Assembly: GCF_009914755.1 (NCBI RefSeq)
Contig: NC_060929.1
Source: the human T2T-CHM13v2.0 reference genome, Homo sapiens
Reading direction: 5' to 3' (one strand)
Length of the DNA stretch: 64,000 bases
How positions within the stretch are numbered: the stretch's first letter is position 1; every line of letters begins with the position of its first letter. The translations under genes and the position numbers were made by a program. Positions 10,181 through 33,206 of this stretch are shown here, one piece after another. The notes under the pieces are model-generated. The model searched no databases and was not told the DNA's origin. It worked only from the letters and a program-made list of their open reading frames with translations.

Positions 10181-10477
10181 AGGTTTTAAGACAGTGACAC
10201 CTGAGGATAGGTTGGGTACCATGCTTGCTAACCCTATAGGGCAGTGACTTCACTCTGCAACCTTATGAAGCCCTCTGAATAATTACCTCATTTTTATTTT
10301 TTATTATTCAGAATTTCACGGGTGACCTAAATAACCACTAGGTGTTTTAGTTTCCTAGTTTGCATTTTTGCATAACTTAAAGATTTCAGGTCATTGAATT
10401 TCATTTGCTTATACTTTTTTGTTTGCATGTTTAAATCAATTTTGCTTCTTGTACAAAGCAAGCCTTGTTTTCCTCAG

Positions 10478-10534
10478 AGCTCTAGAAACCAACAAGTGTA
10501 CCCAAACCACAGCCACGTACCTCTTGCTTGCTGA
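10478..10534 (+). CDS. IRGM: IRGM alternative 3' coding exon (IRGMd-type tail), phase-0 reading SSRNQQVYPNHSHVPLAC*
   Basis: Same acceptor as the SNRK-derived exon; phase-0 frame begins SSRNQQV, which I recall as the IRGMd C-terminus; TGA at 10532-10534. Confidence 0.6.
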   Translation, partial: SSRNQQVYPNHSHVPLAC

Positions 10535-10612
10535 AAGGATCCTGAGAGAAAAGCAAGACAAAGAAATACAGATCAGCTCCGCAAGCCCTAGAAATAGCAA
10601 GGCCCAGCTCAG
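10478..10612 (+). pseudogene. SNRK: Duplicated (unprocessed) SNRK exon, UBA/post-kinase region, 135 nt with intact AG/GT
   Basis: ttcctcag|A GCT CTA GAA...CAG CTC AG|gtgaga; translates [45 protein letters not shown] versus recalled SNRK [45 protein letters not shown]. Confidence 0.9.
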
Positions 10613-10749
10613 GTGAGAAAAAAAAATCTTCACTGATTTTAGTAAGTTTAAAGTTTGGAAATAGTAAACTTTTTTTTTTGTTGTTGTTGTTGTTAATGCT
10701 TCCTAACTTTGTGAGGCTAGAGAGTACAAATAGTGATCCCAACTTCCTG

Positions 10750-10860
10750 ACTCAGCTTCCTGATCTGTAAAATGGGAGTAATAATACTCTCTACCTCATG
10801 AGATTGTGGTGAAAGATATGCAAATCAATAGATGTGACATACTTAGGACAGGGCTCCATG
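10750..10860 (+). mobile_element. MIR fragment
   Basis: ctcagcttcctgatctgtaaaatgggagtaataatactctctacctcatgagattgtgg MIR core. Confidence 0.7.
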
Positions 10861-11324
10861 TGTTTGTTGCCATTGCTATGAATTTTTACCACCATTATTG
10901 TCTTCAGGAATAAATGACTACCCTTCTTCTCTCTTCCTTCCTCTACCTCTTCCTTCCTCTCTTCCTCTCTTCCAGCTCCTCCTCCTCTCTCCTCATCTTC
11001 CCACCTTTTTTTGCCATATTACTTTCCACTTAAAATAAAAACATAGAAAGGGTTTACTTTTTGAGCTCATCACTATGAAATTTATTTAGAATTTATCTTT
11101 ATCCATTTAGATATAGGTAATTTGTAGAATTGTAGTAAAACTGAAGGGTATTCCCAATTCTGAATACATCTGATTTGTGCATCCAAATATGTATATTTAT
11201 TACTGTTATAAGGTCTATATAATTATTATTATTGTGTAATTATTATTATTGGAAAAGATAAATGTATAATTATTGTTGTTATATTATTATTATTTAAAAT
11301 TTGTTATGAGAATAATTATTATTG

Positions 11325-11570
11325 TCTCTTAGGATTCTTTCAGTAAGAAAGAAATAAGTGGCTGCAATGTGGGTATACCTGTTGGTTTCCAGGGCTCTAA
11401 GGAAAACAAAGTTTACTTTTTACAAGAGGTATAATTGATTTAATGAAGCAAATGAAAAAATACTAGCAAAATTCAATGACTTGGAATCTTTAAATTATGC
11501 AAAAATACACACTAGGGGTTAAAACACCTAGTAATTACTTAGGTCACTCTTGACTCTTGAAATTCTAAAA
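11325..11570 (-). pseudogene. SNRK: Second, inverted copy of the SNRK intron-end/exon fragment
   Basis: Reverse strand ttttccttag|A GCC CTG GAA ACC AAC AGG TAT...; translates ALETNRYTHIAATYFFLTERILR; 57/72 nt identical to 10478-10549, and about 170 nt of intron also align. Confidence 0.9.
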
Positions 11571-11959
11571 ACAACTGCATAAAAATGTTCATATCAGTAA
11601 GAAAAATCCAAAATGCTGATGGTAGCTGAGATGGATGTCAGTGTTAGATGCATAAGAAAAGGTAATGAGTAAAAAGGGAAAGGTAAATGAAGCTTCCAAG
11701 GATGTGCAGGTTATCCAAAAATTTAATTGCATGCCAGTGTTTATTTTTGTTAAACTGGCTTACTTGCTTCCATCAGAAGTAAGAAATGTAGATGAGGTCT
11801 GTATTACATAAATGTGCATTGAAACACCAGTGTCAATCAGAAAAATTAGAAAAATCTTTGTTTTCAGATTCTCTTTGCATTTATTGGTAATTTAAGCACT
11901 AAAGAATTATTCATGTGTTAAGAATATGTCATCATTAACCTCTTTGAATGAAAGCAATG

Positions 11960-12040
11960 TATTCATTCATCCATTTAAAAAGTAATGCTTGCCAAGTACT
12001 TAGTCTGGCCAGGCACTGTGCTGGCTAGGCACTGGGGGTA
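11960..12040 (-). mobile_element. L2 3' end fragment
   Basis: attcattcatccatttaaaaagta...ccaggcactgtgctggctaggcactgggg. Confidence 0.65.
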
Positions 12041-12082
12041 TAACTTCCACAAGGCTCACATTCCCTACCCACTCTCTTGCAG

Positions 12083-12144
12083 CTGGCCTGCCATGAGAAA
12101 TACCTCAAGAGTACTCCAGAGAATTCCACAAGGCCCAGAAATAT
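12083..12144 (+). CDS. IRGM: IRGM alternative internal coding exon (LACHEKYLKSTPENSTRPRN)
   Basis: ctctcttgcag|CTG GCC TGC...AGA AAT AT|gtaagt, 62 nt, strong splice sites; peptide matches the recalled C-terminus of IRGM isoforms b/c. Confidence 0.85.
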
Positions 12145-12229
12145 GTAAGTATTTAGAAACTTTCTACAGTGAAAATACACAATGAACACTAAGGATAGAA
12201 GCAACAGCTAAGATCACTTTTTATAAAAC

Positions 12230-12847
12230 ATAGTGTGGGTCACAGCTCATTGTGATGGGGTAGGCCAAGGCATGAGATTCCAGAGAAAGAGCCCAAGGTA
12301 AAATTCAAGGGTACACTTACTTCTTAGGGTGGCTTCTTCAGCTGAGTACCAGATAAAAAGATAGCTTGTGTTGAAGCAGTATATTGTAAGACTAAGGTGT
12401 GTCTTAAACTCAAGAATTACCCTCAGAATGAAAAGCTGCTCATAAACGTGAGCAGCAGGCAAGACCTAAGACTAGTTGAGGGATCAGCAGGCTCTAGTCT
12501 CCCACTTTCTTCCCTATATAAGATGTGTGCTTGCTAGTGGATGGGCAAACTGGAGTCATCTGAACCATTAAAATTCCTGTCTTTGGATTTATAATTGAAT
12601 ATACATTAATTAAATAGTTTTGTATGACTTCACTGTCATTATTTGTATAATTGTTTATTTAAGCTTAGAACATTCAGTCAATTGTGGGAGATATGAACAG
12701 CTTTTTATCCATTTGAAAATGCCACATTGTTTTCTACATATTCCTAAAGTGAGGGTCCTCGGCATGTGTAGCAAGTGTCCTGTTTGTTGTTCCTTGTTTC
12801 GTTCATTTAAGTGTCTGTGGGTATATCTGCAAAAACTCATAAGGCAC
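12230..12847 (-). pseudogene. Decayed V2R (vomeronasal type-2, class C GPCR) exon-3 remnant, copy A
   Basis: Acceptor tttttcag|VPYEF, then LLHMPRTLTLGI...FKWI, VILEFKTHL, KCT...LWN and AVTHTM, in the order of V2R exon-3 motifs (L/VSYG, YQMAPKDTSLALG..HF.W.W, EIP.FK.F, NC...LEW, AVAH.LH). Confidence 0.55.
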
Positions 12848-13324
12848 CTGAAAAATTGTAGAAATTTATGCTTAAACCGAAATTAAGAACCTGGGTTTAT
12901 TTTAGTAAATCTTTCTCTCCAGTTTTCTAGAAACATCCTAAAGATATATATCCTTTATACAGACACTAACCTTCTCAGGAACCACACACTCCCACTGAGT
13001 GTTGCCTGTGATAGTTTGCCCTATGCAGAGGTCCATCTGTAAGTCCAACTTGCAGCCTCCTGTCCTCCTAGGTCATGTATCTAGGTCACATCACTCACCC
13101 AGGCCAGGAAAGCCCTCCCAATGGGAACCCGCTTTTAAGTTGTCCAGAGTATACCTTCTTGCTATCATATTCAACTGTATCACTCAACATGTTAAATAAC
13201 TTTCACTTTTCATGTGGGAAAATGTTTCATATTTTCATAAAGAGTACCTCATGGAAGTTAATCATCACTGAAACAAAACAACTGTGCCTTTGCTTTGTGT
13301 TGTCCTTGATTTCAAACGTCTTCA

Positions 13325-16705
<3,381 letters not shown>

Positions 16706-32399: not shown

Positions 32400-33190
32400 G
32401 TCAACATTGCCTGCTTAAAAGCCTCCTTTGTTTTCTTCTTTGCTAACACAGTCTCATCTCAGTCATCTCAAATCTCAAGCTTTCTCTCATCCCACACCAA
32501 TTCCATATTCACTCTGTCAAGCTGCCAAACAGTTAGTTGTCCATAACAATCCTGTTAATTTTCCTATTGTACATATAAGAAAACTGAGGATTACAGTGGT
32601 TAAGTAAATACTTGCCAAAGATGATTACATACTAAATATATGATTGATGAACTCTCTTATCTGCAAGATTTATTCTCAATAGTCTAGGTTCTTGACTACT
32701 GCAGTCCAAACTGCCTCCCTGATACTGTAAACATCATGATCTTTTATATTTTATCACTTCAATACCAACCTTAGTCGACCTTTCCATGAAGCACTCTCCA
32801 TTTTAGTTTCAAAATTCTCAGCCTTCCTAAAATCACTCTGCCCTTTCTACTTTTACAAATGCTGCTTCCTGTCCTCAGCCTACTTCCCTCATGAGCCAAA
32901 GTTCAATAATCATTTAAGCCTATTACCTACTTCCTTAGAAATCTGGTTGTTCCCCCCTCTCTGCTATAACAGTACCTGCTCCCATGTCTGCTACAGAACT
33001 TTTATGTGTTAATGTTAGTTTCTACATCTCTTTACATCTCTGCCGATGTGTTAATGTTGGTTTCTACATCTCTTTTTTCTCTGCAGTCCTTCCAGAAGAA
33101 AACTATACGTAAATCTGCTCAGGATATTCAACAGCTAGCCAGTGCATATGACATATACTGGGTACTTAAGAAACGTTTGTTAAATGAATC
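32400..33190 (+). mobile_element. L2 3' region (interrupted by a MIR piece)
   Basis: Ends ...cagctagccagtgcatatgacatatactgggtacttaagaaacgtttgttaaatgaat, resembling the L2 terminus. Confidence 0.6.
33087..33138 (+). CDS. IRGM: IRGM terminal coding exon (IRGMb-type tail, (I)PSRRKLYVNLLRIFNS*)
   Basis: tcttttttctctgcag|T CCT TCC AGA...AGC TAG; phase 2 matches the 12083-12144 donor; peptide matches the recalled IRGMb end. Confidence 0.8.
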
Positions 33191-33206
33191 ATGATTATAA
33201 AGAAAA

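What the first reader, a model, noticed from the sequence alone, without database searches (positions are those of the whole stretch)
10478..10612. IRGM C-terminal exon is an exapted SNRK kinase exon read in a different frame
Seen: a 135-nt exon with intact AG/GT whose phase-2 frame is stop-free and SNRK-like. Its phase-0 frame gives SSRNQQVYPNHSHVPLAC*. Flanking intron is present, so this is a DNA-level duplication and not a retrocopy. Recalled: SNRK is on chromosome 3, and IRGMd has an SSR-initiated tail. Inference: the IRGMd tail would be frameshifted kinase sequence rather than a true IRG G5 motif. If downstream exons are also spliced on, the early stop predicts NMD.
Basis: partly seen in the sequence, partly recalled or inferred. 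Interest (0 to 1): 0.78.

Follow-up and report, generated by a model that had tools for sequence, protein, structure and literature searches.

The report
IRGM exon copied from SNRK gene
An alternative end-exon of the human immunity gene IRGM is a decayed copy of one exon of the unrelated kinase gene SNRK, read in the wrong frame, so it adds 18 meaningless-looking amino acids and an early stop.

Summary
Window 10478-10612 has AG/GT borders. Its +1 frame is open and matches only human SNRK (PDB 5yks, E 3e-11). The DNA, including about 150 nt of intron on each side, matches SNRK on chr3 (77% over 416 nt). The exon is 135 nt in both genes, with the same borders and 115/135 identical bases. It is therefore an unprocessed DNA copy, not a retrocopy.

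The IRGM ORF has a CGG|GTATGT donor after codon R177 (phase 0). The exon is thus read +2 relative to SNRK, giving SSRNQQVYPNHSHVPLAC then TGA. That stop lies 78 nt before the next junction, which meets the NMD rule.

New here:
- The SNRK piece is about 3.3 kb and arranged as a fold-back (10310-11194 +, 11322-13660 -).
- The next IRGM exon, 12083-12144, comes from the antisense SNRK-intron copy.
- The two arms are predicted to form a roughly 200-bp RNA stem over the exon's acceptor.
- Only this one SNRK exon was copied.
- Both frames look neutrally drifted.
- The copy is old (K2P 0.1-0.4), older than the Alu inserted in it.

Bekpen 2005 already said the long-isoform tails are unrelated to GTPases and carry the NMD signal. 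The SNRK origin was not found in print. I could not verify that this isoform is the one called IRGMd.

The parts
10478..10612 (+). Alternative IRGM exon that is a relic copy of the SNRK exon encoding the end of the UBA domain. The parent is chr3:43358649-43358783. It is read by IRGM in frame 0 (+2 relative to SNRK).
   Evidence: AG/GT borders. Frames. SNRK hit E 3e-11. 135 nt in both genes, 115/135 identical, 0 indels, same borders. Listed as an IRGM exon in the hub's RefSeq table.
10532..10534 (+). TGA that ends the IRGM frame after 18 tail codons. It lies inside the conserved SNRK codons GCT GAA AGG (A-E-R).
   Evidence: It is 78 nt before the exon's 3' end.
10310..11194 (+). Forward arm of the SNRK-derived DNA: upstream intron flank, the exon, and downstream intron. 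It forms two blocks, 10322-10737 and 10748-11194. About 409 nt present in chr3 between the blocks is absent here.
   Evidence: blastn against chr3: 77% and 69% identity. Alignment.
11195..11321 (.). AT-rich, simple-sequence spacer at the turn of the fold-back. It has no SNRK match.
   Evidence: Gap between the blastn blocks. Sequence seen in the fold input.
11322..13660 (-). Inverted arm: a copy of SNRK intron (chr3:43356430-43358648) plus the first 75 nt of the same exon (window 11396-11322, minus strand). An Alu at 13337-13648 interrupts it near its far end.
   Evidence: blastn 70% over 2411 columns. Genome-wide, only chr3 and the chr5 partner match. tblastn hit of the exon peptide at 11413-11315, E 5e-12. 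Alignments.
12083..12144 (+). Second alternative IRGM exon (62 nt), made from the antisense strand of the copied SNRK intron. Its donor is GTAAGT here but GTAACT at the matching chr3 site, a difference caused by a 4-nt indel.
   Evidence: AG/GT. Alignment to chr3 reverse complement. Hub RefSeq table.
10310..10552 (+). Left strand of a predicted long RNA stem that pairs with 11322-11566. It covers the polypyrimidine tract, the acceptor and the first 75 nt of the exon.
   Evidence: the repeat finder I1-I3, 75-90% complementary. The stem is in both the MFE and centroid folds. duplexfold -258.7 kcal/mol with 202 pairs, against -64.5 +/- 6.3 for 100 shuffles. 41 of 46 nt at 10455-10500 are paired.
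13337..13648 (-). Alu inserted into the inverted arm after the duplication. An unrelated Alu of another subfamily sits at the same homologous site in SNRK.

Best explanation
**Origin.** Long ago, about 3.3 kb of the SNRK gene on chr3 was copied as DNA to a spot about 29 kb downstream of the IRGM coding exon. The piece held one 135-nt exon, encoding the last UBA helix and linker, with intron on both sides. It ended up as a fold-back, with one arm forward and one inverted. The forward arm kept the SNRK acceptor and donor.

**Use by IRGM.** IRGM transcripts that do not end at the coding exon use the donor after codon R177 (phase 0). They splice into this inherited acceptor, and some go on to 12083-12144 and 33087. 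The SNRK exon starts in phase 2, so IRGM reads it two bases out of register: 18 unrelated residues, then TGA.

**Consequence.** I infer that the exon mostly acts as a stop-carrying ('poison') alternative exon. Its mRNAs meet the rule for nonsense-mediated decay. Any protein made is IRGM 1-177 plus a tail that is neither GTPase nor UBA sequence and shows no sign of having been shaped by selection.

**Shown versus inferred.** Shown: the origin, borders, frames, fold-back and stop position. From annotation: use by IRGM. Inferred: NMD, low protein output and the age. The confidence of 0.8 applies to the origin and frame. The 'mostly unproductive, neutral tail' part taken alone is about 0.6.
For: **Origin**
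- SNRK is the only protein hit.
- The DNA match includes introns.
- The exon has the same length and borders, 85.2% identity and 0 indels.
- The parent peptide is identical to 5yks_A 337-377.
- Genome-wide there are only chr3 and the two chr5 copies.
- I cut the 90-kb SNRK region into 1509 stop-free peptides and ran tblastn against the window plus 22 kb upstream. Only the UBA exon hit among coding exons (E 1e-20 and 5e-12). The first kinase exon, the exon before it and the last exon gave nothing.

**Frame**
- The 181-aa IRGM ORF is and the phase-0 donor CGG|GTATGT.
- The in-script splice gives 195 aa with the tail. The stop is 78 or 140 nt before the last junction.

**Neutral drift**
- There are 12 nonsynonymous and 7 synonymous codon changes in the SNRK frame.
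- The SNRK frame stays open in 53% of random trials. Loss of the parent's frame-0 TAA (codon 8, TAA>TAC) happens in 20%.

**Age**
- K2P is 0.10-0.23 around the exon and 0.28-0.41 along the long arm.
- The Alu inserted in the arm is only 0.057 from consensus at non-CpG sites.

**Literature**
- Bekpen 2005 (passages) reports five 3' splice forms reaching more than 50 kb downstream. [quoted passage not shown]
- The IRGM ORF aligns to IRG structures only up to residue 174-177.
Against: - I saw no transcript, junction-read or protein data. Use of the exon rests on the hub's RefSeq table and on Bekpen 2005.
- Reviews state that IRGMb and IRGMd carry a G5 (SAK) motif and that over-expressed IRGMd alone goes to mitochondria and kills cells (passages). 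If IRGMd is this isoform, the first claim conflicts with the tail, which has no SA-x. The second suggests the tail may matter, against my 'junk tail' reading.
- Which lettered isoform holds this exon was not verified.
- The forward copy has changed less than the inverted one (12 against 23 private changes in 214 sites). The 114 nt after the donor are 90% identical to SNRK. This could be chance or mild constraint on the splice signals.
- Divergence is very uneven (0.10-0.41), so the age is loose.
- The same-site Alus remain unexplained.
Confidence: 0.8

Rival explanations
1. The out-of-frame tail is a selected, functional module. The 18 residues, ending in Cys, give this isoform its own localisation or partners, for instance membrane or mitochondrial targeting. 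The exon would then be a true exaptation at the protein level.
For: Reviews report isoform-specific behaviour of over-expressed IRGMd: cardiolipin binding, mitochondrial location and cell death (passages). The parent's early frame-0 TAA was lost in the chr5 copy, which lengthened the tail from 7 to 18 residues. The forward copy has fewer private changes than the inverted copy, 12 against 23.
Against: The link between IRGMd and this exon is unverified. Loss of the TAA occurs in 20% of random-mutation trials, and 12 against 23 is not a strong difference. The mRNA carries the NMD signal (Bekpen 2005). quotes that endogenous expression of individual isoforms had not been documented. No cross-species data could be examined.
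Confidence: 0.12
2. The fold-back is a regulatory RNA device. The roughly 200-bp stem between 10310-10552 and 11322-11566 hides the acceptor of the stop-carrying exon, so helicases or ADAR editing set how much IRGM mRNA is diverted to the unproductive form.
For: The stem appears in both the MFE and centroid folds of 10300-11580. duplexfold gives -258.7 kcal/mol against -64.5 +/- 6.3 for 100 shuffles, and 41 of 46 nt around the acceptor are paired. Both arms lie in one IRGM intron/exon unit on the transcribed strand.
Against: This is thermodynamic prediction only. The stem follows automatically from any inverted duplication, so it is no evidence of function. The arms are only 79% alike and have drifted. 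Co-transcriptional splicing may precede synthesis of the second arm, which lies 770 nt downstream.
Confidence: 0.1
3. The resemblance to SNRK is due to a retrocopy, a shared dispersed repeat, or chance, rather than a DNA duplicate of the SNRK locus.
For: Parts of the wider region are repeats. Window 10739-10800 hits 14 other chromosomal sites, 15888-16700 matches L1 ORF2 sequence also present near SNRK, and Alus lie in both loci.
Against: Intron sequence on both sides of the exon, and a further 2 kb of intron in the inverted arm, match SNRK collinearly. Only one exon is present, with its splice sites. Genome-wide there are no copies other than chr3 and chr5. E-values are 8.7e-92 for DNA and 3e-11 for protein.
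Confidence: 0.01

Closest known systems
Human SNRK, the exon encoding the end of the UBA domain and the linker (chr3:43358649-43358783; protein residues 337-381 in PDB 5yks numbering)
   Same: Same 135-nt length and the same AG and GT borders. 115/135 bases and 32/44 residues are identical in the SNRK frame. The flanking intron is homologous.
   Different: The chr5 copy is an isolated fragment. It has no other SNRK exon, it drifts neutrally (12 nonsynonymous to 7 synonymous changes), and it is transcribed as part of IRGM and read two bases out of register. No UBA or kinase sequence is made. Pfam UBA_MELK scores only 13.2 bits against a cutoff of 27.
The five 3' splice isoforms of human IRGM, IRGM(a)-(e) (Bekpen et al. 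2005, PMC1297648, passages read; Bekpen et al. 2009, PMC2644816, passages read)
   Same: The exon is one of the known downstream IRGM exons. The paper already states that the long isoforms end in short extensions unrelated to GTPase domains, and that three of the five forms have junctions after the stop.
   Different: In the passages I read, neither paper says where the exons came from. The SNRK origin, the fold-back and the antisense-intron origin of 12083-12144 are additions. Later reviews credit IRGMb and IRGMd with a G5 (SAK) motif, which this tail does not contain.
Exonisation of duplicated gene fragments or unprocessed pseudogene pieces in a new frame, and stop-carrying 'poison' exons coupled to NMD (general knowledge, recalled)
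   Same: A dead gene fragment that keeps its splice sites is picked up by a neighbouring transcription unit. It supplies an out-of-frame tail and a premature stop more than 50-55 nt before a junction.
   Different: No expression or decay data were seen here. The host gene is itself a resurrected pseudogene whose downstream splicing was not confirmed in macaque (Bekpen 2009), so the capture is probably recent while the fragment is old.
Inverted-repeat (usually Alu-pair) double-stranded RNA stems in pre-mRNAs that affect splicing or attract ADAR (general knowledge, recalled)
   Same: Two inverted arms of about 240 nt, 770 nt apart in one transcript, are predicted to pair strongly.
   Different: The arms are unique SNRK-derived sequence, not Alus. 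One arm contains the acceptor and part of the exon itself. No editing or splicing effect has been shown.

Membership tests
Unprocessed (DNA-level) duplicate fragment of SNRK | Sequence homology to a SNRK exon, significant and specific | tested here: met
   The only PDB hit is SNRK, E 3e-11. In the genome-wide peptide search only chr3 SNRK and the chr5 copies appear. 115/135 nt are identical.
Unprocessed (DNA-level) duplicate fragment of SNRK | Homology continues into the introns on both sides, with splice sites retained | tested here: met
   chr3 match over window 10322-10737 and 10748-11194, plus a 2.3-kb inverted arm. AG and GT lie at identical aligned positions.
Unprocessed (DNA-level) duplicate fragment of SNRK | Loss of coding constraint in the copy | tested here: inconclusive
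   12 nonsynonymous against 7 synonymous codon changes and 12/44 residues changed fit neutrality. However, the frame is still open, which is expected in 53% of neutral trials, and no outgroup was available.
Processed retrocopy | Adjacent exons joined without introns, and a poly(A) tail | tested here: not met
   Only one exon is present, flanked by its own introns.
Segmental duplication (usual operational definition: at least 1 kb and at least 90% identity; recalled) | At least 90% identity over at least 1 kb | tested here: not met
   The length of about 3.3 kb is enough, but identity is 69-77% by blastn and 74% counting substitutions only. This is an ancient duplicate.
IRG GTPase G5 motif / genuine IRG C-terminal sequence | The tail is homologous to the IRG G domain beyond strand beta-6 and carries an SA-x type G5 motif | tested here: not met
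   The tail codons are SNRK-derived. The 18-residue tail has no S-A pair. The IRGM ORF aligns to 13 IRG structures only up to residue 174-177. Bekpen 2005 says the same.
Functional UBA domain | A complete three-helix UBA domain detectable by profile | tested here: not met
   Pfam UBA_MELK scores 13.2 bits against a cutoff of 27. Only profile positions 30-41 of 43 are matched. The exon before it is absent, and IRGM does not read this frame.
NMD substrate (50-55 nt rule; recalled) | Stop codon more than 50-55 nt upstream of the last exon-exon junction | tested here: met
   78 nt (exon followed by 33087) or 140 nt (with 12083-12144).
NMD substrate (50-55 nt rule; recalled) | The transcript is stabilised when NMD is blocked | not testable with these tools
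   No expression data were available.

The most novel reading that the evidence does not exclude
The old SNRK fold-back is an RNA switch on IRGM dosage. Its roughly 200-bp double-stranded stem hides the acceptor of a stop-carrying exon. Double-stranded RNA helicases or ADAR, both tied to the interferon state, would then decide how much IRGM pre-mRNA goes to the decay-prone form. The small amount of protein made from that form would carry a Cys-ended tail with its own membrane behaviour.
Probability: 0.07. Interest if true: 0.7.

Novelty: new member of a known kind. Interest (0 to 1): 0.42.

Why it matters
IRGM is a Crohn's-disease and tuberculosis risk gene, and its isoforms are treated as functionally distinct in the literature.

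- **The tail is not GTPase sequence.** One isoform's private tail is out-of-frame SNRK sequence followed by an NMD-type stop. Claims that the long isoforms regain a G5 nucleotide-binding motif cannot hold for this one. Results from over-expressed cDNA, which escapes NMD, need care.
- **It adds a step to the 'death and resurrection' story.** The revived gene picked up splice-competent debris, an old kinase-gene fragment and its antisense intron, as 3' exons.
- **It gives testable handles.** These are the junction peptide, the NMD dependence and the hairpin arm.

As a phenomenon it is an ordinary kind of exon capture.

Tried and rejected
- **More SNRK exons in the window or the 22 kb upstream.** None were found. 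The blastn match at 15888-16700 is shared L1 ORF2 sequence, not SNRK.
- **Homology beyond the Alu at the far end of the inverted arm, towards the previous SNRK exon.** Nothing collinear appeared with word size 7 and E up to 10. Only about 17 nt look alike by eye.
- **Dating from a 'shared' Alu.** Rejected. The two same-site Alus differ at about 15 of 33 bimodal columns. They rank 9th of 19 and 13th of 19 as each other's neighbours among 20 Alus. Their K2P is 0.18, against 0.38 in the adjoining unique DNA.
- **Twin-priming or L1 transduction as the origin of the fold-back.** The order of the arms does not fit that model. This is reasoning only, not a test.
- **Repeat origin of the 33087 exon.** The genome DNA search found only itself. 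That search skips common words, so the result is inconclusive.
- **Which lettered isoform carries the exon.** Singh 2010 is not held. This stays unverified, and those supplements and Bekpen's figures may settle it.
- **Prior print of the SNRK link.**
  - IRGM+SNRK: 5 papers, none with both terms in title or abstract. The one I opened lists the two genes separately.
  - Tail peptide strings: 0 papers.
  - SNRK/pseudogene/5q33: 263 papers hold two of the three terms. The 12 listed are plant SnRK or unrelated.

Full report
**The observation.** The sequence shows ...ttttcctcAG|AGCTCTAGAAAC... at 10476-10478 and ...CTCAG|GTgaga at 10612-10614. The frame from 10478 reads SSRNQQVYPNHSHVPLAC and then TGA at 10532-10534. 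The frame from 10479 is open for all 44 codons, and the third frame has stops.

**Is it SNRK?** phmmer of the 44-residue open frame against all PDB chain sequences at E up to 10 returned one sequence. That was 5yks_A, SNF-related serine/threonine-protein kinase, residues 337-377, E 3e-11. Pfam gave only a sub-threshold touch on the last third of a UBA profile: UBA_MELK, 13.2 bits against a cutoff of 27. The exon therefore encodes the end of the UBA domain and the linker, not catalytic kinase sequence.

- The window's own genome is searchable. With window 10300-10800, the best foreign match is chr3:43358479-43358897 (77%, E 8.7e-92), spanning the exon and both intron flanks.
- A second, inverted copy lies at window 11322-11553 (79%).
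- The other 14 of the 17 matches all fall on query bases 440-501, a dispersed repeat.
- The peptide searched in six frames over the genome finds only itself, chr3:43358650-43358778 and the inverted chr5 piece.

**The parent exon.** A three-way alignment places the parent exon at chr3:43358649-43358783.

- It is 135 nt, as here, with AG and GT at the same aligned columns.
- 115/135 bases are identical and there are no indels.
- Its translation is identical to the 5yks row.
- In the SNRK frame, 12 codons changed the residue and 7 did not. That is what a copy without coding constraint should show, given that the parent is constrained.
- In 20,000 random-mutation trials with the same numbers of transitions and transversions, the SNRK frame stayed open in 53%. 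The open frame is a leftover, not evidence of selection.

**How much was copied, and in what shape.** blastn of the window against 50 kb of the SNRK locus gives three collinear pieces:

- 10322-10737 (+) matches chr3 ...58479-58897 (77%).
- 10748-11194 (+) matches ...59306-59729 (69%).
- 11322-13637 (-) matches ...58723-56459 (70% over 2411 columns).

About 3.3 kb of SNRK is therefore present as a fold-back. The forward arm holds the whole exon and the downstream intron. A 127-nt AT-rich spacer follows. The inverted arm then holds the first 75 nt of the same exon (window 11396-11322, minus strand) and about 2.2 kb of the upstream intron.

The two chr5 copies share a 12-nt insertion and a 26-nt deletion relative to chr3. 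The inversion-duplication therefore followed the primary copy, or else chr3 changed later.

The 2-kb arm has no other match in the genome. I cut the 90-kb SNRK region into 1509 stop-free peptides and ran tblastn against the window and the 22 kb upstream. Of the SNRK coding exons only this one hit (E 1e-20 forward, 5e-12 inverted). The first kinase exon, the preceding exon and the large last exon did not. The remaining hits were non-coding frames of the copied intron, or Alu and L1. The match at 15888-16700 is L1 ORF2 sequence.

**How IRGM reads it.** The IRGM ORF lies about 19 kb before the window (L014:2622-3167, 181 aa).

- Its end reads ...CAG AAG GAG CGG|GTATGT GAA TAC TAA. This is a consensus-like donor directly after codon R177, in phase 0.
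- Splicing to 10478 therefore starts a new codon at the first base of the exon. SNRK itself enters the exon with one base left to complete a codon.
- A script that joined the pieces from the files gives a 195-aa product whose last 18 residues are those.
- The stop lies 78 nt before the end of the exon. It is 140 nt before the last junction if 12083-12144 is also included. This meets the usual 50-55 nt rule for nonsense-mediated decay.
- In the parent exon the same frame stops after 7 codons, at TAA. In both chr5 copies this is TAC, which lengthened the tail to 18 codons. Such a loss occurs in 20% of neutral trials.
- The TGA that ends the tail sits in the conserved GCT GAA AGG of SNRK.

That IRGM uses the exon comes from the hub's RefSeq table and from the literature, not from data I could examine.

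**The neighbouring exon and the hairpin.** The next IRGM exon, 12083-12144, lies inside the inverted arm on the strand antisense to the SNRK intron. Its acceptor context is present in chr3 as well. Its donor is GTAAGT here but GTAACT at the matching chr3 site, because of a 4-nt indel.

The two arms are predicted to pair in the pre-mRNA:

- The stem 10310-10552 with 11322-11566 appears in both the MFE and centroid structures of 10300-11580.
- The repeat finder reports the arms as 75-90% complementary.
- duplexfold gives -258.7 kcal/mol with 202 pairs, against -64.5 +/- 6.3 for 100 shuffles.
- 41 of the 46 nt around the acceptor are paired.

This follows from any inverted duplication and is not evidence of function, but it is a testable way in which inclusion of the exon could be held down.

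**Age.**

- K2P distances to chr3 are 0.23 (upstream flank), 0.17 (exon) and 0.10 (114 nt after the donor) for the forward copy. Along the inverted arm they are 0.28-0.41.
- In the 214 sites where all three copies align, private changes number 12 (forward copy), 23 (inverted copy) and 21 (chr3 plus the internal branch).
- The Alu in the inverted arm is 0.057 from a 20-Alu majority consensus at non-CpG sites. The duplicate is thus perhaps two to three times older than that insertion.
- From recalled rates this means tens of millions of years, probably around or before the early primate radiation. That is far older than the ape-specific ERV9 promoter and the downstream splicing that Bekpen 2009 could not confirm in macaque (passages).
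- The fragment therefore lay idle long before the revived IRGM began to splice into it. This ordering is inference, and cross-species alignments are needed.

**An oddity.** SNRK carries an Alu at the very site, to within 1-2 nt and in the same orientation, where the chr5 arm carries one. Homology ends about 17 nt beyond it. Yet several things point to separate insertions:

- The two Alus differ at about 15 of 33 bimodal columns.
- They are not each other's nearest neighbours, ranking 9th of 19 and 13th of 19.
- They are half as diverged as the adjoining DNA.

I read them as independent insertions into one favoured TTTT/AATAA target. Gene conversion of a shared older Alu is not excluded. I did not use them for dating.

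**What is already known.** Bekpen et al. 2005 (passages) describe five 3' splice forms reaching more than 50 kb downstream.

A 2022 review says IRGMb and IRGMd carry a G5 (SAK) motif (passage). The tail here has no S-A pair. The IRGM ORF aligns to 13 IRG structures only up to residue 174-177. Of the tails I computed, only the direct splice to 33087 (212 aa) contains a K-S-A-Q stretch.

I could not confirm which letter this isoform bears.

I found no paper linking IRGM to SNRK:

- 5 papers hold both words, none in title or abstract. The one I opened lists them separately.
- 0 papers hold the tail peptide.
- The 12 listed hits for SNRK/pseudogene/5q33 are plant SnRK or unrelated.

About 1.7 million PMC articles and most subscription papers are not searched.

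**Verdict.** The finding is real and the reading is right in its core. The exon is a frame-shifted relic of the SNRK UBA exon, captured with its own splice sites by IRGM. The additions here are the fold-back architecture, the antisense-intron origin of the next exon, the predicted hairpin over the acceptor, the single-exon extent, the neutral drift and the rough age.

It is a clean example of a known kind of event, capture of a dead gene fragment as an out-of-frame, stop-carrying exon. It sits in a medically watched gene and has a practical consequence for how isoform experiments are read. It is not a new kind of mechanism.

Noticed in passing
window 13337-13648 and L011:6459-6760 (chr3:43356459-43356760): Two Alus of different subfamilies sit in the same orientation at the same homologous TTTT/AATAA target in the chr5 copy and in SNRK. 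They lie right where homology ends. The chr3 Alu has a perfect 10-nt target-site duplication, while the chr5 one is degenerate.
   Followed up: partly
window 12083-12144: This IRGM exon is antisense SNRK-intron sequence. A 4-nt indel relative to chr3 turns GTAACT into a GTAAGT donor.
   Followed up: yes
window 12634-12847 (minus strand): The 3' exon of lncRNA LOC124901111 (hub table) lies inside the inverted arm, in the SNRK-sense orientation of the copied intron. The SNRK fragment therefore feeds exons to transcripts on both strands.
   Followed up: no
window 10613-10737: The first 114 aligned nt of intron after the donor are 90% identical to SNRK (K2P 0.10), much closer than the upstream flank (0.23) or the long arm (0.28-0.41). 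This may reflect a constrained intronic element on the SNRK side, or chance.
   Followed up: no
window 10739-10800: A short dispersed repeat gave 14 hits on other chromosomes at 83-94% identity. It looks like a MIR core, by recall only. It appears to be shared with the chr3 intron block, so it would pre-date the duplication.
   Followed up: no
window 33087-33191: Direct splicing from the R177 donor to this exon gives a 212-aa product with a 35-residue tail. This is the only computed tail with a K-S-A-Q stretch that could have been read as a G5-like motif. The exon lies antisense within a ZNF300 intron.
   Followed up: partly
L014:3168-3260 (just after the IRGM stop, upstream of the window): The frame continues after the TAA as F-L-S-S-L-N..., which by recall resembles the F-L-V-S-N stretch that follows in mouse IRG proteins. 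phmmer did not extend the alignment into it.
   Followed up: partly
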